A DNA stretch of 11,593 nucleotides from a virus, in UHGV virus genome UHGV-1887975; one strand, given 5' to 3'. Positions 142 through 11,526 of the stretch are shown here, piece by piece (position 1 is the stretch's first letter; every line of letters begins with the position of its first letter). A program made the position numbers and the translations under genes. The notes beneath the pieces are model-generated. The model made no database searches. It was given only the letters and a program-made list of their open reading frames with translations, and was not told where the DNA came from.

Positions 142-258
142 ATAAAGTCTATTCGGTTTTCTTTAGATGTTCGCCTCACATAATCTTCAAGTGATGTTCC
201 TTACATCTCCCTAGAGCGTTAAGATAGTTAACTGATTGAGTTTTCAGGGTATGAAAGG

Positions 259-924
259 ATGAGCAACACTACTGATTGGGGAAGCATGATAGCCAACATA
301 GTTATGGCTACTACCGCTGTCTGGGCTGCATTCAAAGCTAATGACTGGTTTAAAACCAAGCGTCTTGAGAGTGCTGAAAACTTCTATAAAGAAGTACACA
401 ATCTCCATAAACGTTACTATTCAGCTATCCAATACGTTGAGGATTCAAGAAGAATATTTGATAGTCAGTATGGGTTGCATTCGCCAATATCTGAACCTAA
501 AGACAAGTCATTGCAATGGGAGGTTAAATCGAACTCTTACAAAATCATCGCTGAACTAGATTATCTGGCATCGTCACTACAAATGATGGATGCAATGGGT
601 AACAAACTTAGCCCTAAATCGGCTTCACTGGTTAGTGATATGATGGAAGCACATGGACGATTCTGTAATGATGTGATGAACTTCAATGACTCAGTTTGGA
701 AGGTTATAAGGGCAGGTATAACTGAAGAGAACATCCCACATACGCGAGGCTATGTGAACGGCGATTACATGGCTATCCTTACCAGTATGGATGAACCTGT
801 AAGAATATCTTTTAAGTTAAAAGAAATCAGTTTTAAAGATTTTTACTTACATGAAACTACTATGCAGTCAGTAATAACGAGGCTGAAATCGCTTATCGCC
901 AGAACAGGTAAAAACAGGACATAA
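259..924 (+). CDS. Hypothetical protein, 221 aa, with predicted N-terminal transmembrane anchor
   Basis: Uninterrupted 666-nt ORF. Residues about 10-26 (IANIVMATTAVWAAF) form a hydrophobic helix followed by a charged soluble domain. The AAAGGA purine run abuts the ATG at 259 with essentially no spacer, so the true start may be the in-frame ATG at 286. No recognisable family motif. Confidence 0.55.
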   Translation: MSNTTDWGSMIANIVMATTAVWAAFKANDWFKTKRLESAENFYKEVHNLHKRYYSAIQYVEDSRRIFDSQYGLHSPISEPKDKSLQWEVKSNSYKIIAELDYLASSLQMMDAMGNKLSPKSASLVSDMMEAHGRFCNDVMNFNDSVWKVIRAGITEENIPHTRGYVNGDYMAILTSMDEPVRISFKLKEISFKDFYLHETTMQSVITRLKSLIARTGKNRT

Positions 925-1112
925 ACAGGTTAGTACCTATGCAATTTAACGGTATTTTTCCAAGTATCTATGCAATCCTACACAGATTCTATACAGTATC
1001 GACATAGTTTCCTTTTGGTATAACTTATTGAAATATATAAAGAATCTGTGAAGCCCCTTTTCAGGGTAAACTGTATCGTGTTAGTCGTCCCTCTCTCGAC
1101 TCCTAGAAAAGT

Positions 1113-1142
1113 GCTATATACAGGGCTATATAATGCTATATA
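1113..1142. repeat. Three tandem copies of GCTATATA (starts 1113, 1125, 1135)
   Basis: Direct reading: GCTATATAcaggGCTATATAatGCTATATA, spacing 12 and 10 bp. Contains a TATAAT hexamer at 1129..1134. Confidence 0.5.
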
Positions 1143-2591
1143 GATAGTTGGTCACATGGTGTAACTATCAAACTACTTAACAGTTTCCTACGTGAAAGTT
1201 AGAAAGTGATAGTTATAGTTACCTTGTCAAATCTTCGTAGTCCATTCTTAAAAAATCACTTACAGACACCTTAATATCTATACAGATTTCATGTAGAACA
1301 CGATTAGTGCGTAGAAGAGTCATTATGTTAAAAACGAACTGTATACGTATCAGTACTGATTTATAAGGGTTTTGTGTATTTGAAGATAAGAGGCTATACA
1401 GCACCTTGAGAGCATGTCTTCTAAGTCATTGATACATAAGGTCACAGAAGTTTGTGTCTGTTACAGAGAAAACTGGATAGGACTTCACAGAACTACAAAA
1501 TGTTACAGCTATTGATAGGTGAAATCTTCTTGATAGATGCCTTGAAGTGTGGTGAAGGTTTCTTGAGGTGGAGCTAAACAGATGCTATGAAGAAAGTCAA
1601 TAGTTGGTTATAGATATTTTAACTGCTTTTGCAAAGGGGGTGCTGTATCGTGAATCTGGGGTACTTAACAGCCATCAATCATGAGGTAGATTCTACCGAA
1701 TCAACTGTGTAGATATTTTTTAAGATTATCGGTGAAGGGGGAATGCAGAGGGGGGTACTACGATTTTTATAAAAATTTTCAGAAGCCAAATAACTACTGT
1801 GTATATTTTGCACAATCCTGCCAAACCTCATAGAAAGCTCTGTAGCGAGTTTTAACCCCATTTTTAGGGGTAACCTGTAGGGATGTACCACCCACCTTAA
1901 AATAAAGGGGTAAAATCGCTTAGAATGCGTTACAGAGCGTCTGAGAAGCTATATTCACAGATTTTACTAAAGTCTCAGACTTCTAAGTAGTCTTTTTAAC
2001 GGGAGGGTTCTTTCTCATGTATCACCCTCTCTTCCCGCTAAGTAAGCTACACAGACCTAGAGAACATGCCTTCACAGCATCTATATCAGGTCAGATTTAG
2101 AGGGTTTTGATAGAATTTTCAAAGGTACTTGACAGATAACTATGAAGTTGTTAGGAAGAATTGTTTAACGGGAGGAAAGATACGATATAACCCGAAGGGA
2201 AAGTATCATCTTAACAGTGATTGTAAGAGATACCTGAAAAGCTCCTCTTAACAGAACTACCAAGAAGAGAGGGAACGATAAGACCAGAGGTAGTGACCTG
2301 TTAAATAGTTCGTTTCAAAGCTCTTAAGAGTCTGTTAAGTAAGGGCTATGTGAACAATCTTACCATTTTGTCAATGCTCTTGTCTTTGACCTAAATCAAT
2401 AAAATGTATCGTTTGATATGGTTTTAAGCAAGATGGCTAAAAATCTTTTTAGAGGGGCGCTTCGCTTGTGTCACTATGTTCTTTCTCTCCCTGTCTAAGA
2501 GGGGGGTTACAGAGGTCTTTCAAGTCTCAATAGACAAACCGAGGAACGCAGGAAACCGAGGGAAGAAAAACTATTGTGATTACCCTGAACA

Positions 2592-2625
2592 AGGTCTGTA
2601 AAGGTCGTTTAAGAGGTCGGTTAAG
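2592..2625. repeat. Three tandem AGGTC-containing units of 10-12 bp (AGGTC at 2592, 2602, 2614); iteron-like
   Basis: Direct reading: aAGGTCtgtaa / AGGTCgtttaag / AGGTCggttaag. The last two units are 12 bp and differ at one position. Confidence 0.5.
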
Positions 2626-2749
2626 AAAGGAGCTTCCCTCTCTGGGGTTGTCGCTCTTCTCTCGCTTGGTGGATTGATTAGGGGGTATGTTATACAAGCC
2701 CAACTAAGAAGACCTCTGAAGCTTACCTGTGAAGAAGCTGAACAGCTAT

Positions 2750-2900
2750 TATATTGGGTGATTACAACTCATTGAAAAATAAGCATTTTTAGAAATCACT
2801 GTTAAGGTTGCAGAGTTGTCTGTGAGGAGACTTGTCTGCTCTCTATATTGGGTGGTTACAACTTATTGAAAAATAAGAACTTTTAGAAATCACTGTCAGA
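2750..2900. repeat. Pair of 57-bp imperfect direct repeats (2750..2806 and 2844..2900), 94-bp period
   Basis: Aligned by eye: TATATTGGGTGaTTACAACTcATTGAAAAATAAGcatTTTTAGAAATCACTGT versus TATATTGGGTGgTTACAACTtATTGAAAAATAAGaacTTTTAGAAATCACTGT, roughly 50 of 57 identical. Confidence 0.6.
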
Positions 2901-2998
2901 GAGGTGAATACTTGATAGATACAGCTTTCCGGTTCTGTCAAGTCATTTTTTAATAGATAGCATAAAATGCTAAAGATACCCCTATACCATCACGTACA

Positions 2999-3030
2999 GG
3001 GGGTTTTGAAGGGGGTTTAACGGGGGTCTG
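2999..3030. repeat. Three tandem G5-tract units (GGGGG at 2999, 3011, 3022)
   Basis: Direct reading: GGGGGTTTTGAA / GGGGGTTTAAC / GGGGGTCTGTG, spacing 12 and 11 bp. Overlaps the 3' end of the - strand small ORF. Confidence 0.5.
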
Positions 3031-3193
3031 TGTGGTCATTATCCTTAAGGTCAAGCGTCCATGTACGACCGAACAGTTTAAAGACAACAAGCACTCTGAC
3101 GAGGACGTAGCGAAGTAGCAGGCCTGCAATAAGTCCAATACCTCCACCAGCCCATACATCAGGTGACCCCAATTCTGGAGGGAGATTTACCAT
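3017..3193 (-). CDS. Putative small membrane protein, 58 aa (MVNLPPELGSPDVWAGGGIGLIAGLLLRYVLVRVLVVF...)
   Basis: Internal ATG of the track ORF 3017..3235 at 3191..3193 is preceded on the - strand by AAGGA about 7 nt upstream. It encodes a strongly hydrophobic glycine-rich helix of about 23 residues. It lies within locally GC-richer sequence, antisense to all neighbouring genes. Could be spurious. Confidence 0.35.
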   Translation of the reverse strand: MVNLPPELGSPDVWAGGGIGLIAGLLLRYVLVRVLVVFKLFGRTWTLDLKDNDHTDPR

Positions 3194-3410
3194 TAAATTT
3201 CCTTGTAAGACGCTCTCAATCGCATTCTGACACAAAAAAGTACCTGACCTTATAGTTGACCTGAAGAGGCCATTTAACTCGTTACAGAGCGATTGAAGAG
3301 GTCTGTGTGCAATGCAATAACCATGTGACCACTCTCATAGCCACGCCTCATATTTTACTCTCCCCATAGAACCATTATACCACAGATGTTAATGAAATGT
3401 TAAAAAGTGC

Positions 3411-3439
3411 TTGACATTAGTCTTTGAAAATGCTAGTAT
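3411..3439 (+). promoter_or_regulatory. Sigma70-type promoter: TTGACA, 17-bp spacer, TAGTAT
   Basis: Consensus -35 TTGACA at 3411..3416, 17-nt spacer, -10 TAGTAT at 3434..3439 (4 of 6 to TATAAT), about 48 bp upstream of the ATG at 3488. A TTAACAGAGG word sits at the expected transcription start. Confidence 0.55.
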
Positions 3440-3487
3440 TGTATATAAGTTAACAGAGGATTAACAATTATAAGGACTAGCTTATGA

Positions 3488-4042
3488 ATGAACGACAGAG
3501 AATTTAGAGCGATGCTTCAGGCATCAAGAGAACGCAACAAGCACAACTCCTACGCTTACACAAACAACCCCACCAGCTACGAACTACCAGCCTTTTCCAA
3601 ATCCGAACGTAAAAGCATTGAAGCGGTCATTCGTAGCATTACGCCACGAGGCAGATATATGCCAACACGCAAAACAACAAAGAATAACTTAAAAACTTTC
3701 TTGATGAGTTTTGACAGCTACGAACAATTACCGTCACGAATTGAAGATGTAATTATCGGCACTTGTCGCAGCTTTGGAAGGGATAACTATCACCGGAAAG
3801 TTTTCTATTTGCTTCGAAGCCTTGATGAGATTAACTCAAGCACAGTGACGAGCCATCTTCAAAGACAAGCAACCAGACTTAGCCACGAGCTACCATCTGA
3901 TAAGTATTGCGCTAATTTAACCACCATTTGCAATAAAGTTATCGAGACAATCAATCATCATGTTGGGGTTGGTAATATCAGCCTTACGACCAGTGAGCCA
4001 GACTTTGAATTTGACGTATACGCACAAGCAGAGGAATTTTAA
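3488..4042 (+). CDS. Hypothetical protein, 184 aa
   Basis: First gene after the predicted promoter; AAGGA about 10 nt upstream of the ATG. Basic, Ser/Thr/Arg-rich. No motif I can recognise. Confidence 0.65.
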   Translation: MNDREFRAMLQASRERNKHNSYAYTNNPTSYELPAFSKSERKSIEAVIRSITPRGRYMPTRKTTKNNLKTFLMSFDSYEQLPSRIEDVIIGTCRSFGRDNYHRKVFYLLRSLDEINSSTVTSHLQRQATRLSHELPSDKYCANLTTICNKVIETINHHVGVGNISLTTSEPDFEFDVYAQAEEF

Positions 4043-4043
4043 A

Positions 4044-4325
4044 ATGGGAAATAAACACACACTAACCAGAGTTACAAAGACAGCCTTTGAAGAACTTAAC
4101 CGAATCAAAAACATTACAGGTCTGCCACACTCAGCAGTGATGAAGCTTGCAATTAACCGTGATATTAACGAGCAGGATTTGCTTAATAGTCGTTTAGAGG
4201 CAGCAAGACACCATATCAGGATTAAGCAAGATGACCTTGATAGTCTGAAATCTTTAAATGCTTTTGGACTGGATTTAGCAAGGTTACTAAGTATCAAAAT
4301 TCACAAATTAGCGATGGAGGTTTAA
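4044..4325 (+). CDS. Hypothetical small protein, 93 aa (start moved to the RBS-supported ATG)
   Basis: Track ORF 3960..4325 would overlap the upstream gene by about 80 nt. The in-frame ATG at 4044 is preceded by GAGGAA (4031..4036) and begins 2 nt after the upstream stop. Its stop overlaps the next start (TAATG). Confidence 0.6.
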   Translation: MGNKHTLTRVTKTAFEELNRIKNITGLPHSAVMKLAINRDINEQDLLNSRLEAARHHIRIKQDDLDSLKSLNAFGLDLARLLSIKIHKLAMEV

Positions 4326-4711
4326 TGTATGACTTTTATAAACATCGTGACCATTTGGTAAGATTTGACGGTAAAGTCTGGAAAGACGTAACACAAACCA
4401 ATAAGCCCAAGTTTACCCACCAGCAATTAGCCTCAAGATTTGATATCTGGGCTGAAGCACAAAAAGATAATGGTGATTTCGAGTTTATCAGAGGTTTTGA
4501 TTATGCTTACGAAAGCGACCTTAAAGACGCCATTGAATTAATGGAGAACTTCAACTCTATTAAAAATAGTGACAAGCACAAAGCCAACGGTAACAGATAC
4601 GATAAAGATTTAATCATTGATGCAATCACCAAAGGACAATCACAAAGTTATATTTCTGAGAAATACGGCTTATCACGTAGTCAATACTACAAGATTAAAG
4701 CGTCTGTGTAA
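4325..4711 (+). CDS. Putative DNA-binding protein with C-terminal helix-turn-helix, 128 aa; possible transcriptional activator
   Basis: The C-terminal segment DKDLIIDAITKGQSQSYISEKYGLSRSQYYKIKASV has the classic pattern of a helix-turn-helix as found in small phage activators and sigma region-4-like domains. The start is translationally coupled to the upstream gene. Family assignment is an inference. Confidence 0.6.
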   Translation: MYDFYKHRDHLVRFDGKVWKDVTQTNKPKFTHQQLASRFDIWAEAQKDNGDFEFIRGFDYAYESDLKDAIELMENFNSIKNSDKHKANGNRYDKDLIIDAITKGQSQSYISEKYGLSRSQYYKIKASV

Positions 4712-4723
4712 GTCTGTGAGAAT

Positions 4724-4792
4724 GAGTGAGACTCAAAGATGAGCTACCCTATTACTAAGGTGTCTCACTCCCTCTGTAACCCGCATGGTTAC
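4724..4792 (+). promoter_or_regulatory. Two consecutive hairpin-forming inverted repeats in the gap between genes
   Basis: Perfect 9-bp inverted repeat GAGTGAGAC (4724..4732) / GTCTCACTC (4762..4770) with a 29-nt loop, followed by a 6-bp stem GTAACC (4776..4781) / GGTTAC (4787..4792) with a 5-nt loop. No U-tract follows either, so they are not classic terminators. Confidence 0.4.
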
Positions 4793-4849
4793 TGGCCTCA
4801 GAATGGCTATTTTGGCAGATTTAAGATGTGTTTTTATAGGATTTTAAAA

Positions 4850-5173
4850 ATGAATAATTTCCCACTACAGATTTTTATTGATACCGACACCGCCATGATG
4901 ATTCAGGCTTTCACTGATGTAGGTGTTAGCATTGACTTTGATAAGTTGTTAGAGTTAATGGCTGATNATNCNGANANCATCTNTGACTTTATTCACTCGG
5001 TGGAGTTTAACGAGCCTCGAATGATGTTACCAATTACAGACAGTAATATGAAAAGATTGGTTATTGAGCAAACGAACAAATACAGTATTTCCCCAGAGCA
5101 ATTTTTGAAAGGTGCTGTGACAATCCTGTACAGCGATAATATTTTGGTTACGGATTCCGTGAGGGTTCACTAA
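4850..5173 (+). CDS. Hypothetical protein, about 107 aa (alternative start 4739 gives 144 aa); contains ambiguous bases
   Basis: Track ORF 4739..5173. The ATG at 4739 lies inside the hairpin region, so the in-frame ATG at 4850 is preferred, but neither has a strong RBS. Codons 4967..4984 include N, so several residues are undefined. Confidence 0.45.
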   Translation: MNNFPLQIFIDTDTAMMIQAFTDVGVSIDFDKLLELMADXXXXIXDFIHSVEFNEPRMMLPITDSNMKRLVIEQTNKYSISPEQFLKGAVTILYSDNILVTDSVRVH

Positions 5174-5250
5174 TGGGCTTAATAATTGCTTGGACGTTGC
5201 TTGGCTTATTTGTTGGTTGCTGGGTGGGTAACACAGTAAATAAGAATTGA
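5173..5250 (+). CDS. Candidate micro-ORF encoding a 25-aa hydrophobic peptide (MGLIIAWTLLGLFVGCWVGNTVNKN)
   Basis: Its ATG overlaps the upstream stop (TAATG at 5171..5175), suggesting translational coupling. The peptide is almost entirely one transmembrane-like helix. Below the length cut-off of the ORF track and could be fortuitous. Confidence 0.3.
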   Translation: MGLIIAWTLLGLFVGCWVGNTVNKN

Positions 5251-5468
5251 TGTTATCAATCTGTTAAAAGCTGTTGACAAATAACCTTAAGCATGAGATG
5301 ATGGTAATAGGGGGCAACTCTTCCTGAATTAAACTATTAATCATTCTACATCAATGATAGTTATTCTGAGTTGGAAAGGTGCAATGCTTTTCGTCATGGC
5401 CTATTTAGCCCACACTAGATAGGCTATCTCAAAAAGTCTTTGTTTATTCATTGAATCCTTTACAGATT

Positions 5469-5496
5469 GCCCTAATCATGAGTTAGGGCGTTTTTT
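5469..5496 (+). terminator. Rho-independent terminator
   Basis: Perfect 7-bp stem GCCCTAA (5469..5475) / TTAGGGC (5483..5489), 7-nt loop, followed by G then TTTTTT (5491..5496). Confidence 0.65.
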
Positions 5497-5667
5497 AAGA
5501 GTTTTTAAAGAAATTTCTTCACCAGCCCTTTATAGCGTTTTAGTTATCTAGGGCTTTTTCAGCTTTTAAAAAGCATACTTGGCAAACGCTTTTAAGTCTC
5601 TTCTAAGTTCGTAGGCTGTCAGGTGTGCTTTTTAAAAACTGAATATTACTTAGAAGAGGAAAAAACA

Positions 5668-6378
5668 ATGACAAACGATTTATATATTAACGGCAGAAAG
5701 ATTGATAGCTTCGGGGACTGGTCACCACAGGGTGAACATCCGCTACATACTATTCAGCGTAAAGAACACGATGAAAGAATTAAGCTTGAGCAAGAGTTAA
5801 AGATGTCACCAAAGGTAATTTCCTTTGTGTCTCCTGAGCCTCAAGAAATGCCTGATGTATGCAAAACTGAAGCACTATTTAATCTTGAGCGTGAATATTA
5901 CCCACTGCTAAAAGCACAGCGTATTAAACTAGATGACGCTTACAGCAAAGTTACCCTGATGCAATCAGCTATTGAGCCATCAGAATTTGAGATTCAGGAT
6001 GAATTGTCACAGAAACCATTTGTCTATTACAAATATGAAGACAATGATGGTTTTGGTACTTTTCCTGAGAATATCCCAGACGTGATTAATAATCTTCCTG
6101 ATGGATATCGAATTGTGAAGATGGTTAAAGCTTCAAGAGGTGCTGGTCAGTTTATTTTCATGACCGATAGGAGCGATGAAGAACTCTGTGAAATTGCTAA
6201 ACAGAACATCTTAGCATCACGTAACAAGCAACTTGAAAATGTTAAGTTGTATCTCTCAAGAGAGCTTCAGGCTATGAAAGAGCTTGTTAGTGAATATGAA
6301 TCACAGAAGAAGATTGCTATGCAGGCTGATATTGAGCAGTTAGTGAAGATTTCTCAGAAATATGCAAAGGCACTTTAA
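5668..6378 (+). CDS. Hypothetical protein, 236 aa (start moved to the RBS-supported ATG)
   Basis: Track ORF starts at 5623. The in-frame ATG at 5668 is preceded by GAGGA (5656..5660) with 7-nt spacing. Acidic, with a coiled-coil-like C-terminus. No recognisable motif. Confidence 0.65.
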   Translation: MTNDLYINGRKIDSFGDWSPQGEHPLHTIQRKEHDERIKLEQELKMSPKVISFVSPEPQEMPDVCKTEALFNLEREYYPLLKAQRIKLDDAYSKVTLMQSAIEPSEFEIQDELSQKPFVYYKYEDNDGFGTFPENIPDVINNLPDGYRIVKMVKASRGAGQFIFMTDRSDEELCEIAKQNILASRNKQLENVKLYLSRELQAMKELVSEYESQKKIAMQADIEQLVKISQKYAKAL

Positions 6379-6402
6379 CTATGAATTAAAAGGAGGTGGT
6401 GA

Positions 6403-6606
6403 ATGATTGATTTAACAGAACGCTATGAGCTTATTAAAGCAATTAGTGAACGATTGAAAGAACAACCCAACAAACCAAAACGAATCAAATCATCCACCTC
6501 TAAGCAAAAGAATAGAATCAGAAGAATCGCTAAATGGTGTCTTGATAAATTACCAAGTGATTGTCAGATTGTCGGTGAAGATGGTAATTATTATCTGGTT
6601 AGGTAA
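6403..6606 (+). CDS. Hypothetical small basic protein, 67 aa
   Basis: Strong RBS AAGGAGG (6390..6396) 6 nt upstream of the ATG. Lys/Arg-rich centre (KPKRIKSSTSKQKNRIRRIAK). Followed by a terminator. Confidence 0.65.
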   Translation: MIDLTERYELIKAISERLKEQPNKPKRIKSSTSKQKNRIRRIAKWCLDKLPSDCQIVGEDGNYYLVR

Positions 6607-6631
6607 AAAGATTGGTTGGGTAAAAATCAAC

Positions 6632-6672
6632 GGGAGAGATTATCGAGTGACATCGGTAGCTCTCCCTTTTTT
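6632..6672 (+). terminator. Rho-independent terminator
   Basis: Stem GGGAGAG (6632..6638) / CTCTCCC (6660..6666) enclosing a 21-nt loop, followed directly by TTTTTT (6667..6672). Confidence 0.6.
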
Positions 6673-6702
6673 GTATATGAGATAGTCTTCTATCGAATCC
6701 TG

Positions 6703-6801
6703 TGTGCTACGTGATGATTCGGATAAGAATTATCCTCATGAAATCTGTAAAACTAATACCCACACTGAAAAATAGAATTTACGTACAACACGCTTAAAGA
6801 G
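6703..6801 (+). promoter_or_regulatory. Upstream regulatory cassette, copy 1: GTGTGCTACGTGA, ATACCCAC-N-AAAAAT, TTTACGTA, CACGCTTAAAGAG
   Basis: The same four blocks occur in the same order upstream of the gene at 9102. This copy carries an extra palindrome GGATAAGAATTATCC (6721..6735) between the first and second blocks. Confidence 0.55.
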
Positions 6802-6812
6802 GTGAAACATGA

Positions 6813-8936
6813 ATGAGCAAATTCACAGTTGATAGTTTTATCGTTGAGCTAGGCTTCAATGAAAACGTTATTAAGGGACTGCAAAGAGTTGAAAAGGCAG
6901 CTTTGCAGTCAGCACAAAGAATTGAAAAGAACCTAAATAAAGGTTTCAGGATTAATACAAAGCAGCTTGATAGTAATTTAACGGCTTCTTTAGGGCAGCT
7001 TGAAAGGAAGTTTAATAAGGCCTTTGACAAGATTGAACAGAGAGCAAGAAATACTAAAGCTTTCCAGTTTACCACCAGATTTAATGACACTGTTAATCCT
7101 CCAAAACAACCAAGACAGCCACGAATTAGCGGAAACAGAGCAATCACAGCAGCTTACTCAGCGAATATGAGCAAGCTAAAAGGCCTTAACCCAATTGTCG
7201 AGAAATACATTAAGAGTCAGTTTTACGGGCTATCTGCTAAAGCCGGGTCAATGGATTCTTCAAAATTCAATGAGAAGTTAGCTCAGTTAAACGCTTCAGT
7301 CAGAGAAGCAATTGCTAAAGCCAGAGGTCATACATCCACCAGCATTAATGGTGACAGAGCAGCTAATAGTCTTGATAACCTGTCTTCAGCAGCAGTTAAA
7401 ACAGCAGGTGCATTTATCTCAATGCAGGCTGTATTAGCCAGTTATCAGAAGATTATGGAAATTGGTTTACAGCGTGCAAGTGCTGAACGTTCAATTGATT
7501 TCGTATTTGATAAAGATGCAGGTCAGGTAAAAGAGTTCACAAAGTCATTAGCTCAAACAACGGGTTTAGATATCGCTGAACTGCAATCACAGTTTGCTGG
7601 TTTTGGTGCTTCAGCTAAAGAGTCTATGGGTATTCAAGGTTCTGAAGAACTTTTTAAAAATATGATTGGCTATGCTCGTCTGATGGGGAGAAGTGAAGAA
7701 GAGATTAAGCGAGCACTGACAGCATTATCACAGATGGCTGGTAAGGGTCAGATTATGGCTGAAGAGCTTAAGGGGCAACTGGCTGAAGCTGTTCCTGGTA
7801 TGGTTCAGGTATTCGCTAAAGCAACCGGAAAGACTGAACAGGAATTATTTGATGCCATGAAGAAGGGGGCTTTAAAATCTGCCGATACTCTTCAGAAGGT
7901 CACTCAGGAACTGAATAAACAAATCACCGCTAAAGGTGGCTGGAAAGCCATTTCAGAAAGTACTCAGGCACAACTAGGGAACTTGAAAAACTCTTGGAAT
8001 ACCACGCTTGATAGTATCTTCAGAGGTTCTGAAAATGGTCTGCAAGATTTTACACGAAGCCTAACAACGCTTTTAAACGCTCTTGGTGGAAGTGGTAAAA
8101 GTCTTGGTGAATCTCTTGGTAGTCTCATGACTTCTATGTCACATGGTGTCGATAGTCTGACCGATATTAGTTACAAGGTGCGAGCGTTCTTTGATGAGGT
8201 GACATTAGCTTACCGTTCACTAAATGACACTCAGAGGAAAATTGTTGATGGTTTATCTGATGGGTTAATTGATGGTTTGAAGATGCTTGCTGTGGCTGTT
8301 ACTGCTCAAAAGGCTGCAAATGTAGCTGGAGGCTTGTTAAACCTTGCAAATGCTGTTACTTCATTCGGTGATGCTGTTAATAAAGCTAAAGCTGGCAAGG
8401 CTGGTTCTTCAGGTGGTGCGCTAAGTAAAGTCGGTAGAGTTGTCCTTTATGCTGAGTTGGTAAACTTTGCTCTTGATAATTTAAACCCTGAAGCAGCTAA
8501 GAATCCGAACTTACACCAATCAGGTATTGGTACAGAAACAAACTTCAATCCTGAATACAAAGGCGATTCTAAACCAAACCAAATTAATGAGGGGTGGGCT
8601 AAGATTGGTAGTTCTATCGCTGACTGGTTTAATGGTGCAGCTAATAAAATTGCTAACTTACAAGAACCGATGAATAACTTCGTAAATAACACACAATCAA
8701 CTCCACCAGCTATCGACACGGTGAATATCAATGCTCAATTAGCTATGGCTGTATCAGAGTTAGGAAGAAAGGTTGATGCTTTAACAGTAGAAGCTCGGAA
8801 GCCTTTATCAGTTAATATCAAAGGTGAAGCAATTGTTAGGCCGGATGAGCCATCTTTCTTTAATTTCAATCAATCAGCTAATGACCAGTTCACGCAGGAT
8901 ATGCTCTTAAGTTCAAGCTATCCAGAGGAAGAATGA
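6813..8936 (+). CDS. Tape-measure-domain protein, 707 aa (putative phage tail length tape-measure protein)
   Basis: The central segment GYARLMGRSEEEIKRALTALSQMAGKGQIMAEELKGQLAEAVPGMVQVFAKATGKTEQELFDAMKKGALKSADTL matches, as I recall it, the conserved tape-measure signature of lambda gpH-type proteins. N-terminus is coiled-coil-like; C-terminal third is Asn/Gln/Ser-rich low complexity. RBS AGAGGTG about 10 nt upstream. Confidence 0.75.
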   Translation: MSKFTVDSFIVELGFNENVIKGLQRVEKAALQSAQRIEKNLNKGFRINTKQLDSNLTASLGQLERKFNKAFDKIEQRARNTKAFQFTTRFNDTVNPPKQPRQPRISGNRAITAAYSANMSKLKGLNPIVEKYIKSQFYGLSAKAGSMDSSKFNEKLAQLNASVREAIAKARGHTSTSINGDRAANSLDNLSSAAVKTAGAFISMQAVLASYQKIMEIGLQRASAERSIDFVFDKDAGQVKEFTKSLAQTTGLDIAELQSQFAGFGASAKESMGIQGSEELFKNMIGYARLMGRSEEEIKRALTALSQMAGKGQIMAEELKGQLAEAVPGMVQVFAKATGKTEQELFDAMKKGALKSADTLQKVTQELNKQITAKGGWKAISESTQAQLGNLKNSWNTTLDSIFRGSENGLQDFTRSLTTLLNALGGSGKSLGESLGSLMTSMSHGVDSLTDISYKVRAFFDEVTLAYRSLNDTQRKIVDGLSDGLIDGLKMLAVAVTAQKAANVAGGLLNLANAVTSFGDAVNKAKAGKAGSSGGALSKVGRVVLYAELVNFALDNLNPEAAKNPNLHQSGIGTETNFNPEYKGDSKPNQINEGWAKIGSSIADWFNGAANKIANLQEPMNNFVNNTQSTPPAIDTVNINAQLAMAVSELGRKVDALTVEARKPLSVNIKGEAIVRPDEPSFFNFNQSANDQFTQDMLLSSSYPEEE

Positions 8937-8952
8937 TTTCTTATATATATCC

Positions 8953-9026
8953 GTGTGCTACGTGAAATCTTCTGAACGGATATACCCACTAAAAATTATT
9001 TTTTACGTAGCTCACGCTTAACAGAG
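8953..9026 (+). promoter_or_regulatory. Upstream regulatory cassette, copy 2: GTGTGCTACGTGA, ATACCCACTAAAAAT, TTTACGTA, CACGCTTAACAGAG
   Basis: Same four blocks as 6703..6801 in the same order and similar spacing, but without the palindrome insert. Ends about 75 nt upstream of the ATG at 9102. Confidence 0.55.
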
Positions 9027-9101
9027 AAAATACTTATATATCAAAGGTTTGGTTAAAAATGATTAAAATACACTAAGCCTTTGAAATCAAAGGAGAATTT
9101 A

Positions 9102-9872
9102 ATGATTTACACTAATCAGCTTCGTTACAGTGGCAAAGATGGTGTTTACTTCCATCTACAAGGCCAACCAGATAATTTCTTGTCACTATCAGCAACTGAG
9201 AACATGGAATATGACAGCCCTATGATGGTGACCACTCAAAATATGCAATCAGGGCAGACTGTAACAGATAATGTAATGCGTTCACCAAGAACTATTTCAA
9301 TCAGTGGTGTGGTTGTGGTTGGTGAATCCGGTAGTATCCTTATCTCAAGAGATAATAAGCTGGTGGAAAACTTCATAGACACTCTTGAAAACTGGCGTGA
9401 CCAGAAGCAAATTATCTCAGTTGTCTGTAAAGATGGTATTAAGATTGACGACTCAATTATTACAAGCTTTAAAGCCTCTAAAGATGTTGGTATTTCAAAC
9501 GGCCTAAGAATCCAGCTAACTTTTCAGGAAATCAACTTTAAAGCTATCGTAGGGCAAACTGATATTTCGACTGCTACTGGCAAGACCGCTACCACGAATG
9601 ATGGTGGTGCTACTTCTAAGAAGAATACAGGGAATACTACGACAAGTCTTGGAAGCCCTATGCTGACCTGTAAAGAGCTTTTTAGCTATTCGGCAAGTAA
9701 GTTATCAGATGAAGCGCTAAAAGCCCGTGTAACGTGCTCTAAGAGCGTTAGCGTTAAAAATGGTGAGAGCACCTTCACAGCCTCAGCTAATGAGCAAGCT
9801 TCAAAGGTGCTTAAGTCGGGTAATGCTTTACGGAAGTACTCTGTGAATCCGAATAAGAAGGGCACTTATTGA
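9102..9872 (+). CDS. Hypothetical protein, 256 aa; possible tail-associated structural protein by position only
   Basis: The track ORF begins at a TTG (9081). The ATG at 9102 has AAGGAG (9090..9095) at 6-nt spacing. Ser/Thr/Gly-rich. Assignment as tail-associated rests only on its position after the tape-measure-like gene. Confidence 0.65.
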
Positions 9873-9876
9873 GACA

Positions 9877-9899
9877 TAAAAAGGGGCTTCATAGCCCCT
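9877..9899. terminator. Terminator hairpin between convergent genes
   Basis: Perfect 7-bp GC-rich stem AGGGGCT (9882..9888) / AGCCCCT (9893..9899) with a 4-nt loop. AAAAA (9877..9881) on the + strand gives a U-tract after the stem for the - strand transcript (integrase); a weaker A/T stretch follows for the + strand. Confidence 0.6.
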
Positions 9900-9904
9900 G
9901 AAAA

Positions 9905-11425
9905 TTACAGTTGATAAGCGTCAATATCCAGTAGCTCTTTATCAGCAATTTCAAAGATTGGTGACCCATCATTTAGCGGTAACGGGTTTGTAGGTATGGT
10001 TATTTCAGTGTCGTTCTGTAGCGTTACAGTTACCGAATCCTTACCCAATGTCAGCCCCTTTAGATGCTTGGACAAAATCAACTGACACTCGACACGACCC
10101 GCTTTAGTTGTCAGGTCAATATCTTTAAGCTGGGGTAGTTCCTTATCAGTGAGTGAAGCCTTACGCCTCATGTTATCAATCGTGGTCTGTAGCTCTGTGC
10201 GCTTCTGGTTCAGTTCCTTAAGCTGAATTTTTAGTTCATCAATATCATCCATCTCAAGAAGTAGGGCGGTAGCTTTCTTGATTCTGGTTGTGACAATTTC
10301 AACCTCATGCTGTAGAGATGCAATCTTCCCCTCTGCTTCTCCATCATTCCCCACGTCAATCATCCCCAGAAAATTATCAATCATCCACTTATCAAACGGT
10401 TTACGCTTCAACGGAGGAACATCACAGCGACCATCAAGATGGTTATTGCACCGATAAACGCCCTGATACTTATTCTTAGTCCCTGTAGGGTGAACACTAG
10501 CCCCGCACTGACACCTAAACAGACCTTTGAAGATGTTAATCGTTAATGGATTATCACTTGCAGGTGTACGGCCTATACGGTTCTTACCAAGAATCTCTTG
10601 AGCTTTATTGAACGTTGAAGCATCTATAGCGGCTTCGTAGTAGTTCGGTATAGCGGGGCGGTCATTACGTTGTGATGCTGGTAACGTGCCTATCGTTGTC
10701 TCTGACCTTAAGATGGTGCGTACAGAGTGAACACTAAACCCGTTAGCATCTTTACGGCGACTAAACGACTTTATACCGTTGCTTTGAAGGTGACGGGCGA
10801 TGTTATGCAGACTTTCACCACTTAGCAGCAGCTTGAAAATCAGTCTTACAGTCTCAGCGTGTTCATTGAGTTTAAAAGTATCGGGGTCAATCCATCCGGG
10901 AACCATCTTTGTTAAACGTTGTTCACCAGCAAGGGCAAGTTTTGCACGTTGCTCCCATTTCTGAGAAACACGGAAAGACTTCTGCTTAGATTCCTGATGC
11001 GCTATGTAGGCTTTGACACGCTGGATGATTGAGATTCCTAAATCATCGGCTAAAGCATCCTTTGTGTAGATAAGACCATCTTGTAGCGTGTGAATCTCTA
11101 ACCCGTTGCCTAAGATGCGATTCATCAAGGCTTCTGTTTCAAGGTGTTCTAAGCGGCCTATACGGTCGATACTCTCAACAAGCAAAATCGTACCTTCTGG
11201 AAACTCCCCAGACTCAATACGGGCTAACATGTCACCAAACTGACCAGTAAGATGCTTACCTTTGTAACCGGATAGGCCTTCATCACTGAAAGACGCTACT
11301 ACTTGAGCATCGCTATTCTTCTTCAGCCACTGCTTGAACAGGTCGTTTTGTCGTCTGGTTGAATCTGCACCTTCAGCGCCTTGTATAGCTGAACTGTACC
11401 GAAGGTATGTAATTACGCTCCTCAT
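9905..11425 (-). CDS. int: Large serine recombinase (site-specific integrase), 506 aa
   Basis: N-terminal resolvase-type catalytic domain with candidate nucleophilic Ser in YLRYSSAIQ, a D-x-G-x-SG motif (SDEGLSGYKG) and LVESIDRIGR resembling the resolvase DRLGR box. A large recombinase domain follows, then a Cys-rich zinc-ribbon-like segment (CQCG...C...C) and a C-terminal coiled coil. This is the typical large-serine-recombinase architecture. GGGAG RBS upstream on the - strand. Confidence 0.9.
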   Translation of the reverse strand: MRSVITYLRYSSAIQGAEGADSTRRQNDLFKQWLKKNSDAQVVASFSDEGLSGYKGKHLTGQFGDMLARIESGEFPEGTILLVESIDRIGRLEHLETEALMNRILGNGLEIHTLQDGLIYTKDALADDLGISIIQRVKAYIAHQESKQKSFRVSQKWEQRAKLALAGEQRLTKMVPGWIDPDTFKLNEHAETVRLIFKLLLSGESLHNIARHLQSNGIKSFSRRKDANGFSVHSVRTILRSETTIGTLPASQRNDRPAIPNYYEAAIDASTFNKAQEILGKNRIGRTPASDNPLTINIFKGLFRCQCGASVHPTGTKNKYQGVYRCNNHLDGRCDVPPLKRKPFDKWMIDNFLGMIDVGNDGEAEGKIASLQHEVEIVTTRIKKATALLLEMDDIDELKIQLKELNQKRTELQTTIDNMRRKASLTDKELPQLKDIDLTTKAGRVECQLILSKHLKGLTLGKDSVTVTLQNDTEITIPTNPLPLNDGSPIFEIADKELLDIDAYQL

Positions 11426-11488
11426 GGTGATAAACTCCCATGCAATTGATTCTCATTTAAAGATAAGCTTATAACCATTATGGCTAAT

Positions 11489-11526
11489 GCTACAATGCCG
11501 AATAGCTACAATACAATGACCCTTGA
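11489..11526. repeat. Integrase-proximal repeat cluster: GCTACAATG / GCTACAAT / ACAATG, then the right copy of CAATGACCCTTGA; candidate attachment-site region
   Basis: Direct reading of 11489..11526. The 13-mer at 11514..11526 is identical to 129..141. Sequence to the right becomes GC-rich (cctcgccgcttcccctggccgacg...). Confidence 0.4.

What the first reader, a model, noticed from the sequence alone, without database searches (positions are those of the whole stretch)
2750..2900. Pair of 57-bp direct repeats separated by a short spacer
Two roughly 88%-identical 57-bp copies, 94 bp start to start. Each contains TTGAAAAATAAG...TTTTAGAAATCACTGT, which has -35-like (TTGAAA) and AT-rich elements, so these may be duplicated promoters or paired binding sites. 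The 37-bp spacer itself has an internal repeat (GTTGTCTGTGAGGAGACTTGTCTG). Long near-identical direct repeats inside noncoding DNA suggest selection for a repeated function, or recent duplication.
Basis: seen in the sequence. Interest (0 to 1): 0.5.

Follow-up and report, generated by a model that had tools for sequence, protein, structure and literature searches.

The report
Duplicated protein-docking DNA module, phage satellite
The two repeats are real: they are a tandem duplication of a roughly 94-bp non-coding DNA module, most likely a docking site for DNA-bending and DNA-binding proteins, inside the gene-free control region of an E. coli island that looks like a parasite ("satellite") of Felix O1-type phages.

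Summary
The repeat is confirmed: 2750-2802 and 2844-2896 are 53 nt long, 92% identical and 94 bp apart. The longest chance repeat in shuffles is 17 nt.

Each copy is the conserved core of a 94-95-bp tandem unit. Across 73 related loci the unit occurs once (about 20 loci), twice (52) or three times (1).

The window is an 11.4-kb island between yciI and tonB. It encodes a large serine recombinase and diverged copies of the tape-measure and tube-initiator genes of Felix O1-like phages. It also has a 2.56-kb ORF-free region that shares sequence blocks and a CTGTNARG box family with the phage's own ORF-free region. The island has no GATC sites, and neither do the sampled phage segments.

The units show no RNA structure, no covariation and no ORF.

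The invariant core, read on the minus strand, is an A-tract, 8 nt, then TTTCAA-N4-TTG. That is the IHF consensus with one mismatch, and the variable columns fall at its degenerate positions. CTGTNARG boxes flank it.

Best reading (about 0.4): a duplicated nucleoprotein assembly module, most likely for satellite replication or packaging, analogous to the origin repeats of Vibrio PLE. Leftward weak promoters are the main rival. Nothing was tested experimentally.

The parts
2721..2814 (.). Tandem unit 1 (about 94 bp). It consists of box CTGTGAAG (2727-2734), a small inverted repeat AGCTG-aa-CAGCT (2736-2747), TATAT, the conserved core and box CTGTTAAG (2799-2806).
   Evidence: Offset-94 comparison; family alignments.
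2815..2908 (.). Tandem unit 2. It consists of box CTGTGAGG (2820-2827), the 18-bp imperfect palindrome GAGGAGACTTGTCTGCTC (2824-2841), TATAT, the conserved core and a degenerate box CTGTCAGA (2893-2900).
2750..2802 (.).
   Evidence: reference copy.
2844..2896 (.). Conserved core of copy 2, 92% identical to copy 1.
2765..2790 (-). IHF-type site in copy 1, read on the minus strand: AAAAA TGCTTATT TTTCAA TGAG TTG. This is an A-tract, 8 nt, then WATCAR-N4-TTR with one mismatch.
   Evidence: Pattern scan; consensus taken from 10.1101/382655; variable columns lie in N4 and in the spacer.
2859..2884 (-). IHF-type site in copy 2: AAAAG TTCTTATT TTTCAA TAAG TTG.
2758..2799 (.). Inverted hexamers GTGATT (2758-2763) and AATCAC (2794-2799) bracketing the A/T-rich centre of copy 1. 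The same arrangement occurs in copy 2 (GTGGTT and AATCAC).
   Evidence: Sequence; the haplotype table shows no real covariation.
2903..2951 (+). Highly conserved element immediately after unit 2: GGTGAATACTTGATAGATACAGCTTTCCGGTTCTGTCAAG followed by a T-run. It is a 9-10-bp imperfect hairpin that resembles a terminator on the + strand and contains box CTGTCAAG (2935-2942).
   Evidence: Fold; 44 distinct variants in 71 loci with mixed compensatory and disruptive changes.
925..3487 (.). ORF-free control region of the island, which contains the repeats. It holds 14 of the window's 20 CTGTNARG boxes. Seven of the eight boxes up to 2254 are on the minus strand, all seven between 1176 and 2254; the exception is 1046 on the plus strand. 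All six boxes between 2332 and 2942 are on the plus strand.
1596..1730 (+). Block 73-75% identical to the ORF-free region of Felix O1-like phages. Its core is ATCATGAGGTAGATTCTACCGAATCAACT, which contains the palindrome GGTAGAtTCTACC.
2259..2289 (+). Centre of the box polarity switch. It is 84% identical over 32 nt to phage SP116 ORF-free DNA (GGGAACGATAAGA).

Best explanation
The two repeats are the conserved cores of a tandemly duplicated 94-95-bp cis-acting DNA module. It works at the DNA level, not as a gene for RNA or protein.

Each module has an A/T-rich centre that matches the binding site of the host DNA-bending protein IHF (an A-tract plus WATCAR-N4-TTR). Inverted hexamers bracket this centre, and CTGTNARG boxes flank it. 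The same box family fills the ORF-free region of the island and, in denser 11-bp-phased form, the ORF-free region of Felix O1-like phages.

Proposed mechanism (inferred, not shown): IHF bends each module so that a box-binding or hexamer-binding protein, from the helper phage or the island, can assemble a compact nucleoprotein complex. That complex would serve the satellite's replication start or DNA maturation and packaging after helper infection. This would parallel the origin repeats in the gene-proximal part of the 2.7-kb non-coding region of Vibrio cholerae PLE satellites. One module is enough, since single-copy relatives look intact. Duplication by unequal recombination adds sites.

Shown: the repeat, its unit structure, its copy-number variation, its conservation pattern, the absence of RNA-structure signal, and the satellite-like context. 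Inferred: IHF binding, box binding, and the process served.
For: - **Strong, position-specific conservation.** ATTACAACT, ATTGAAAAATAAG, TTTTAGA and CTGTGAAG are invariant or nearly so in 105 distinct units. The 2750-3450 region is more conserved than the neighbouring genes.
- **Match to the IHF consensus.** The minus-strand core is A4-5, 8-9 nt, then TTTCAA-N4-TTG. The published consensus is WATCARnnnnTTR plus an optional A-tract of 4-6 A in the other half-site. The combined pattern gives 4 hits at 3 places in the window against 0.125 expected.
- **Variation at the degenerate positions.** The columns that vary among the 105 units are N1-N3 of the N4 and 3 nt of the spacer.
- **No coding or RNA signal.** No ORF and no Rfam hit. 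MFE z-scores are -0.5 and -0.05. RNAalifold finds no consensus structure on either strand. The candidate stem shows no covariation.
- **Box enrichment.** CTGTNARG occurs 20 times against 3.4 expected, with 14 in the ORF-free region and a polarity switch that is conserved in relatives. A matrix built from the phage's boxes gives 11 hits against 3.1 expected in the island's ORF-free region.
- **Satellite context.**
  - Chromosomal island between yciI and tonB.
  - Tape-measure and tube-initiator homologues of Felixounavirus.
  - Homologous non-coding blocks shared with the phage.
  - Zero GATC sites in the islands and in the sampled phage segments.
  - An 11.2-kb metagenome contig with a 55-bp terminal overlap, which suggests a circular form.
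- **PLE precedent.** PLE has a 2.7-kb non-coding region with four repeat types. [quoted passage not shown]
Against: - Only 1-3 copies of a long unit are present, whereas classical iterons are 17-30 bp in three or more copies.
- No replication initiator was identified in the island. Pfam, NCBIfam and PHROGs found nothing. Two AlphaFold models had pLDDT of about 65; the one searched (ORF 3488-4042) had no fold match in the PDB library, and the other was not searched.
- There is no DnaA box and no GATC cluster near the repeats.
- The IHF match has one mismatch at a consensus A. It was recognised after looking at the sequence, so its statistics are post hoc.
- The boxes inside the units (CTGTGAAG, CACTGTTAAGG) score below the threshold of the phage-derived matrix.
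- The units have no detectable counterpart in phage genomes, so they are not a simple mimic of a helper site.
- The same invariant positions also fit a weak leftward promoter.
Confidence: 0.4

Rival explanations
1. The reverse complement of the box at the 3' end of each unit (TTAACA in copy 1, CTGACA in copy 2) would serve as a -35. TATTTT, 18 nt downstream, would serve as a -10. The IHF-type site overlaps the spacer and would modulate the promoter. A helper-modified RNA polymerase or an activator that recognises the boxes (CTTNACAG contains a -35-like TTNACA) might fire them after infection.
For: The scan reports exactly these two minus-strand sites, 2805-2776 and 2899-2870, each matching 9 of 12 positions. 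Both hexamers and the 18-nt spacing are conserved, without indels, in the 105 units. Five of the twelve promoter-like sites in the ORF-free region coincide with boxes. The region has 12 promoter-like sites against 6.6 expected.
Against: The matches are weak: a -10 of TATTTT and a suboptimal 18-nt spacer. Nothing conserved lies downstream on the minus strand. Depending on the relative, that DNA is non-coding, an oppositely oriented Dam methylase gene, or a distant HNH-AP2 gene. Most other boxes lack any -10 at the right distance (read). The predicted transcripts show no conserved fold.
Confidence: 0.25
2. The units are transcribed rightward into a small non-coding RNA, or the 3' end of a longer RNA, that stops at the hairpin and T-run at 2911-2951 and acts as a regulatory RNA.
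For: A conserved 9-10-bp hairpin followed by TTTTTT lies directly downstream on the + strand. A few variants keep the pairing: G-C to A-T once, and U.G to U-A twice. PLE satellites express abundant non-coding RNAs.
Against: There is no + strand promoter, no Rfam family, no thermodynamic signal and no consensus structure or covariation in 105 units. The hairpin has more disruptive than compensatory variants, and its loop is as conserved as its stem. No complementarity to phage genomes was found.
Confidence: 0.1
3. The second copy is a functionally neutral tandem duplication, made by unequal recombination or replication slippage, of a sequence that is conserved for another reason. The repetition itself means nothing.
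For: Copy number varies from 1 to 3, and about a quarter of the loci have a single copy in otherwise intact islands, for example L003. Internal variants are shuffled between copies, which indicates ongoing exchange. One unit carries an inverted version of the small palindrome (L101 copy 2), the kind of change that template switching would produce.
Against: Two copies persist in 52 of 73 loci across a family that has diverged to about 80-90% identity. Both cores stay nearly invariant, which argues that both copies are under constraint.
Confidence: 0.12
4. The units are recombination sites, either res/hix-like sites for the small serine recombinase that some relatives carry in the ORF-free region, or accessory sites for the large serine recombinase.
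For: Each unit holds inverted sub-repeats around a bendable centre, and a small resolvase-like gene occurs in several relatives.
Against: The window and many relatives keep the repeats but lack that gene. Where the gene is present it lies about 1.2-2 kb away. Large serine recombinases act at short att sites at the element ends and do not need IHF (established knowledge of that family, not tested here).
Confidence: 0.04

Closest known systems
Origin repeats (iterons) in the non-coding region of Vibrio cholerae PLE satellites (Barth et al., NAR 2020, PMC7145576; mSystems 2020, PMC7567579)
   Same: Both are satellites of a virulent myovirus integrated by a large serine recombinase. Both have a 2.5-3-kb ORF-free region carrying several repeat types. 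In both, direct repeats lie in the quarter nearest the rightward gene clusters, and the repeats are semi-palindromic with inverted sub-repeats around a poly-A centre.
   Different: No sequence similarity was found, and no RepA_N-type or other initiator was recognised in the island. The units are about three times longer and occur in only 1-3 copies. The island also carries tail genes (tape measure and tube initiator), which were not checked for in the PLE literature read here. The function of the repeats is untested.
IHF-centred nucleoprotein sites such as lambda cosB (R3-I1-R2) and the pSC101 and R6K origins
   Same: An IHF-type bend site lies between specific protein-binding sites, which would bring flanking sites together.
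   Different: The comparison rests on my recollection of those systems. Here neither IHF binding nor a partner protein is known, and the flanking boxes are direct repeats rather than inverted.
Lambda attP H' IHF site (35-mer of PDB 1IHF)
   Same: Both have an A-tract, about 8 nt, then WATCAR-N4-TTR. The H' A-tract spacing is recalled from memory; the consensus comes.
   Different: The units read TTTCAA instead of WATCAA, with T in place of the consensus A. Their flanks (GTTGTAAT, CTTATT) are conserved beyond what IHF alone would require.
E. coli RIP/RIB elements (BIME-1: two inverted REP units around an IHF site)
   Same: Palindromic units bracket an IHF-type site in extragenic repeated DNA.
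   Different: There is no REP sequence. The units occur only inside this island family: 412 of 5,426 genomes, always on the chromosome.

Membership tests
IHF binding site | Consensus WATCARnnnnTTR | tested here: inconclusive
   Both copies read TTTCAA-N4-TTG on the minus strand, 12 of 13 positions, with the consensus A replaced by T. The relaxed pattern alone is not enriched: 11 hits against 7.2 expected.
IHF binding site | [quoted passage not shown] | tested here: met
   AAAAA (copy 1) or AAAA (copy 2) lies 8-9 nt upstream. The combined pattern gives 4 hits against 0.125 expected, but it was defined after seeing the sequence.
IHF binding site | Sequence variation tolerated at the N positions and not at the consensus positions | tested here: met
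   Among 105 distinct units, changes fall at N1-N3 and in the 3-nt spacer. One unit changes the TTR element.
IHF binding site | Binding and bending by IHF protein | not testable with these tools
   Requires a gel shift, footprint or ChIP.
   There is no + strand site in 2700-2950. Seventeen nt after TTGAAA lies ATCACT, GTTGCT or ATTACT, none with A at position 2.
Sigma-70 promoter | The same, on the minus strand | tested here: inconclusive
   TTAACA or CTGACA, 18 nt, TATTTT, matching 9 of 12 positions in each copy. The hexamers are conserved, but the match is weak and no conserved gene lies downstream.
Iteron-type replication origin (PLE/RepA_N-like) | Several direct repeats bound by a cognate initiator encoded by the element | tested here: inconclusive
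   Direct repeats are present in 1-3 copies. No initiator was found by Pfam, NCBIfam, PHROGs, PDB sequence search or fold search.
Iteron-type replication origin (PLE/RepA_N-like) | Adjacent A/T-rich unwinding region and host-factor sites (DnaA or IHF) | tested here: inconclusive
   The cores are 75-78% A+T against a window mean of 60%, and they are IHF-like. There is no DnaA box nearby (the only one is at 1806) and no GATC site anywhere in the island.
Iteron-type replication origin (PLE/RepA_N-like) | Required in cis for replication | not testable with these tools
   Requires deletion analysis and copy-number assays after helper infection.
Phage satellite (context of the repeats) | Integrated element with its own recombinase and no complete set of virion genes | tested here: met
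   The 11.4-kb island lies between yciI and tonB. It has a large serine recombinase and no annotated capsid or terminase gene; five ORFs have no family match. Its only recognised virion genes encode the tape measure and the tube initiator.
Phage satellite (context of the repeats) | Specific relationship to a helper phage | tested here: met
   The tube-initiator gene is 80-84% identical at the nucleotide level to Felixounavirus. The tape-measure protein has the phage's N- and C-termini. Non-coding blocks are shared. Both lack GATC entirely.
Phage satellite (context of the repeats) | Induction, packaging and transfer by the helper | not testable with these tools
   The only hint is one metagenome contig of 11,233 bp with a 55-bp terminal overlap, i.e. 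a circular or concatemeric form.
Structured non-coding RNA | Conserved secondary structure supported by covariation, or a match to a known family | tested here: not met
   No Rfam match at E up to 1. RNAalifold energy is about 0 on both strands. No covariation in the candidate stem. Z-scores are -0.5 and -0.05.

The most novel reading that the evidence does not exclude
The repeats are the satellite-specific origin of replication, or the packaging-initiation site, of a previously undescribed and widespread family of E. coli satellites that parasitise virulent Felix O1-like phages. About 7.6% of complete E. coli genomes carry the family. In this reading each unit is an IHF-bent module that recruits an unknown island or helper protein. 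The surrounding 2.5-kb ORF-free region would be a re-engineered mimic of the helper's box-filled ORF-free region, which several phage records place at their ends.
Probability: 0.3. Interest if true: 0.7.

Novelty: new variant of a known kind. Interest (0 to 1): 0.42.

Why it matters
Taken alone, a pair of conserved direct repeats in non-coding DNA is ordinary. The setting makes it worth a look.

The repeats are the most clearly island-specific cis element in the control region of a satellite-like island of Felix O1-type phages. I found no description of this island family in the searchable literature. The family is present in 412 of 5,426 complete E. coli genomes.

Felix O1-like phages are used for Salmonella typing and in phage therapy and biocontrol. 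An island that carries its own tape-measure and tube-initiator genes and copies the phage's non-coding signals could reduce phage yield or alter the phage particles.

If the units are the island's origin or packaging signal, they are the natural handle for testing mobilisation, for example with mini-satellites that carry only this region. They would also help explain how a satellite with no recognisable replication genes is amplified.

Tried and rejected
- **Structured RNA.** Rejected for the units: no Rfam match, single-sequence folds no better than shuffles, no RNAalifold consensus in 105 units, and pair counts for the GTGATT/AATCAC stem show independent haplotypes rather than covariation.
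- **tRNA or tmRNA.** None found.
- **Plus-strand sigma-70 promoter using TTGAAA.** No -10 at the right distance.
- **Counterpart in phages or other genera.**
  - Sensitive blastn of 2600-3100 against 50,697 phage records found only a 22-nt match in Erwinia phages, upstream of the repeats.
  - Pattern scans of species-representative genomes found true matches only in E. albertii. The other hits were single chance matches in unrelated taxa.
- **Replication initiator next to the repeats.**
  - ORF 3488-4042 and the ORF annotated as 'transposase' (5623-6378) have only close, unannotated relatives.
  - Both gave low-confidence AlphaFold models, pLDDT 64.7 and 65.6.
  - ORF 3488-4042 had no PDB sequence match and no fold match. 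The second ORF had only weak, partial PDB sequence matches.
  - The second model was not fold-searched.
- **Phage genome ends.** I fetched both ends of phage JLBYU28. The ORF-free region spans the record start, but the record shows no terminal repeat. Whether the shared block lies at the phage's terminal-repeat boundary is therefore undecided.
- **Literature.** Searches for a Felix O1 satellite, or for the function of the Felix O1 repeat-rich region, found nothing relevant.
- **Tandem Repeats Finder.** It does not report the 94-bp period.
- **Origin hallmarks.** DnaA boxes and GATC clusters are absent.

Full report
**1. The observation**

The window contains two direct copies, 2750-2802 and 2844-2896. 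They are 53 nt long, 92% identical and 94 bp apart start to start. At that offset the similarity runs without gaps for 66 nt at 80% or more. The longest 90%-identical repeat in 30 shuffles of the window was 17 nt, against 55 observed. The 20-nt core occurs nowhere else in the window, even with three mismatches allowed (expected 0.01).

The 'spacer' is not a separate element. In relatives, the sequence before copy 2 aligns with the sequence before copy 1: AGTTnnCTGTGAAG followed by a small inverted repeat and then TATAT. The object is therefore a tandem repeat of a 94-95-bp unit whose 5' third has diverged. In this window the 5' third of unit 2 is an 18-bp imperfect palindrome (2824-2841). Tandem Repeats Finder did not list the period.

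**2. Where it sits**

The window is an 11.4-kb island inserted between yciI and tonB of E. coli. It is 99.8% identical to strain UTAK-18.

Its recognisable genes are:
- a 506-aa large serine recombinase;
- a 707-aa tape-measure protein;
- a 263-aa 'baseplate' protein with a Dit-like domain.

The last gene is 80-84% identical at the DNA level to Felix O1-like phages. In those phages it directly follows the tape-measure gene. In phage Bas63 the gene after the tape measure (gp17) is the tube initiator gp18 (PMC12609058).

The island's tape-measure protein is only 29% identical to the phage protein overall. It keeps the phage's first 47 residues at 70% identity and the same C-terminal LLSSSYPEEE.

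Positions 925-3487 contain no ORF longer than 72 codons.

Relatives of the island sit at three chromosomal sites: yciI/tonB, within yecE, and ymdF/wrbA. They share the same gene order. Some carry optional genes inside the ORF-free region: a Dam methylase, an HNH-AP2 protein or a small resolvase-like recombinase.

The repeat region is present in 412 of 5,426 complete E. coli genomes, always on the chromosome.

One metagenome contig of 11,233 bp has a 55-bp terminal overlap, which suggests a circular or concatemeric free form.

The island and four relatives contain no GATC at all, against 37 expected per window. The four sampled Felix O1-like phage segments (21.6 kb from three phages) also contain none. 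The chromosomal flanks carry about five per kb.

All of this points to a satellite-like parasite of Felix O1-type phages. I found no paper describing it.

**3. The ORF-free region resembles the helper's**

Window 1596-1730 is 73-75% identical to ORF-free DNA of 39 Felix O1-like phage records.

In phage SP116 this block lies in a 1.7-kb ORF-free stretch between convergent gene blocks. That stretch is packed with TGTTAR boxes, many exactly 11 bp apart.

The island's ORF-free region carries the same box family:
- CTGTNARG occurs 20 times in the window against 3.4 expected, and 14 of the 20 lie in 925-3487.
- A matrix built from the phage boxes gives 11 hits there against 3.1 expected.
- The boxes switch strand at about 2290. 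Those between 1176 and 2254 are on the minus strand, and those between 2332 and 2942 are on the plus strand.
- The switch is conserved in relatives.
- The switch point (2259-2289) is itself similar to phage DNA.

A Felixounavirus has been reported to package DNA with 581-bp direct terminal repeats (PMC8303462). Many phage records start or end inside this ORF-free stretch. I could not establish where the phage ends lie.

**4. Anatomy and evolution of the unit**

I collected 125 units, 105 of them distinct, from 73 loci in E. coli genomes, IMG/VR and metagenomes.

Copy number is two in 52 loci, one in about 20 and three in one. Some single-copy loci are intact islands.

The order of elements in a unit is:
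- box CTGTGAAG, invariant;
- a small inverted repeat whose sequence differs between lineages (AGCTG-aa-CAGCT, ACTG-ga-CAGT, GAGACT-tgtc-AGTTCTC) and which is inverted in one unit;
- TATAT(AT)GG;
- hexamer GTGATT or CTAATT;
- ACAACTnATTGAAAAATAAG;
- three variable bases;
- TTTTAGA;
- the partner hexamer;
- CTGTTAAG in first copies, or CTGTCAGAG in last copies.

Variants inside the core are shuffled between first and last copies, so the copies exchange sequence.

Across the family, 2750-3450 is 0.87-0.95 identical. The adjacent genes at 3500-4100 are 0.70-0.88 identical.

**5. What the unit is not**

- It encodes no protein and no tRNA, and it matches no Rfam family.
- Folding either strand is no better than folding shuffles.
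- RNAalifold finds no consensus structure in 105 units on either strand.
- The one attractive stem (GTGATT/AATCAC) is made of left and right haplotypes that combine freely, and one of its six pairs is a C-C mismatch in half the units.
- The units have no counterpart in phage genomes.

**6. What it most likely is**

On the minus strand the invariant core reads TCTAAAAA-TGCTTATT-TTTCAA-TGAG-TTG. [quoted passage not shown]

The unit matches all of this except that the consensus A is a T. As I recall it, the A-tract sits at the distance seen in the lambda H' site.

The combined pattern has 0.125 expected matches in the window. It is found in both units and once more at 9027-9051. This statistic is post hoc.

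The distribution of variation is more telling. Among 105 units the substitutions in the core fall at N1-N3 of the N4 and in three spacer bases. TCAA, TTG and the A-tract are fixed.

Each unit is therefore best read as an IHF-type bend site bracketed by inverted hexamers and flanked by two boxes of the family shared with the helper.

I infer that it is a nucleoprotein assembly module. I favour a role in satellite replication or DNA maturation, for three reasons:
- the island has no recognisable replication genes;
- the unit is island-specific;
- the layout parallels V. cholerae PLE. PLE's 2.7-kb non-coding region carries four repeat types. Its origin lies in the part nearest the rightward genes. 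[quoted passage not shown]

This step is analogy, not evidence. No initiator was found. Both AlphaFold models were low-confidence, and the one fold-searched had no match. There are also no DnaA boxes or GATC clusters near the repeats.

**7. Main rival**

The same invariant positions form a weak leftward promoter in each copy: TTAACA or CTGACA, 18 nt, TATTTT, matching 9 of 12 positions. The reverse complement of the box, CTTNACAG, contains a -35-like TTNACA.

A helper-dependent promoter therefore cannot be excluded. Against it, nothing conserved lies downstream on that strand.

A rightward small RNA ending at the conserved hairpin and T-run (2911-2951) is less likely. The hairpin has mixed compensatory and disruptive variants, and its loop is as conserved as its stem.

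A neutral second copy is possible, given the 1-3 copy range. However, both cores stay under constraint in most of the family.

**8. Verdict**

The 'binding sites under selection' reading is supported, and the '+ strand promoter' and 'recent duplication' readings are not.

The feature is a new variant of a known kind: direct repeats in the control region of a phage satellite. Its interest comes mainly from the island around it.

Noticed in passing
window 150-11500 (whole island); relatives L003, L005, L069, L071, L113; phage loci L192-L195: GATC is completely absent from the island (0 sites; the window's only two are in the chromosomal flank at 42-51; 37 expected). It is also absent from four related islands and from 21.6 kb sampled from three Felix O1-like phages. 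The chromosomal flanks have about 5 per kb. Island and putative helper share total GATC avoidance.
   Followed up: partly
window 6813-8936 and 9081-9872: The island carries its own tape-measure protein and the gene that follows it in Felix O1-like phages (tube initiator, gp18 in Bas63). The tape-measure protein is 707 aa against 744 aa in phage HY02, 29% identical overall, with the phage's N-terminal 47 aa and C-terminal LLSSSYPEEE conserved. The tube-initiator gene is 80-84% identical at the DNA level. These two proteins start tail-tube assembly and set its length.
   Followed up: partly
window 1596-1730: This non-coding block is 73-75% identical to the 1.7-kb ORF-free region of Felix O1-like phages, which several phage records place at their ends. 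The conserved core ATCATGAGGTAGATTCTACCGAATCAACT contains the palindrome GGTAGAtTCTACC. It could be a packaging or replication signal copied from the helper.
   Followed up: partly
window 925-3487; L192 3023-4708: CTGTNARG boxes occur 20 times against 3.4 expected, with 14 in the ORF-free region. Their polarity switches at about 2290, and the switch is conserved in relatives. The phage's ORF-free region holds about 30-40 related TGTTAR boxes, many exactly 11 bp apart. The protein that binds them is unknown.
   Followed up: partly
window 3019-3193 (minus strand): A conserved small gene encodes a 58-aa protein with one hydrophobic helix (MVNLPPELGSPDVWAGGGIGLIAGLLLRYVLVRVLVVFKLFGRTWTLDLKDNDHTDPR). 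A strong promoter-like site lies at 3403-3374 (11 of 12 positions, with TG), giving a leader of about 170 nt, and a terminator-like hairpin lies at 3002-2979. It could be a toxin-like or exclusion peptide. It is annotated in some relatives but not in the closest genome.
   Followed up: no
window 3374-3470: Back-to-back promoter-like sites (minus strand 3403-3374, plus strand 3411-3439) are flanked by two pairs of TGTTAA boxes 11 bp apart in opposite orientation (3387 and 3398 on the plus strand; 3455 and 3466 on the minus strand). This looks like an operator arrangement controlling the island's main rightward operon.
   Followed up: no
window 6700-6800 and 8951-9025: A duplicated regulatory module of about 75-100 nt lies upstream of both tail genes: GTGTGCTACGTGA, then ATACCCAC, AAAAAT, TTTACGTA and CACGCTTAA. 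The two copies are 74% identical in alignment, with a 27-nt gap. It may be a helper-responsive promoter.
   Followed up: partly
window 9027-9051 (+): A third site resembles the repeat core and matches the IHF consensus strictly: AAAATACTTATATATCAAAGGTTTG. It is preceded by TTAACAG at 9018 and lies between the tape-measure and tube-initiator genes.
   Followed up: no
L113 (metagenome contig ERZ506742.633, 11,233 bp): This contig is a full island-like element with a 55-bp terminal overlap and no chromosomal flanks, which suggests an excised circular or concatemeric form in a natural sample.
   Followed up: partly
window 1821-1982 and 3202-3305; L004 11544-11705: Two dispersed segments of the ORF-free region both match, in opposite orientations, one intergenic segment located after the HNH gene in relatives. 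Both contain GTTACAGAGCG. This is a mobile or recombining sub-element of unknown nature.
   Followed up: no
window 2602-2626: A 12-bp tandem repeat, AGGTCGGTTAAG (2.1 copies), lies here. Twenty-two nucleotides at 2609-2630 are identical to DNA of three Erwinia phages of about 85 kb (annotated as hypothetical protein in two, unannotated in one), suggesting the box arrays may extend beyond the Felix O1-like group.
   Followed up: no
relatives L002, L004, L005, L070-L074 (region equivalent to window 1250-2700): The ORF-free region acts as a cargo slot. Different relatives carry a Dam-type adenine methylase, an HNH-AP2 protein or a small resolvase-like recombinase there. The window carries none of them.
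   Followed up: no
window 4739-5173: This ORF's translation contains X residues, so the window sequence has ambiguous bases (N) here. PGAP annotates a shorter ORF in the near-identical genome.
   Followed up: no
window 1110-1142: GCTATATA occurs three times in tandem with a 12-bp period (TRF score 45), in a part of the ORF-free region conserved among relatives.
   Followed up: no
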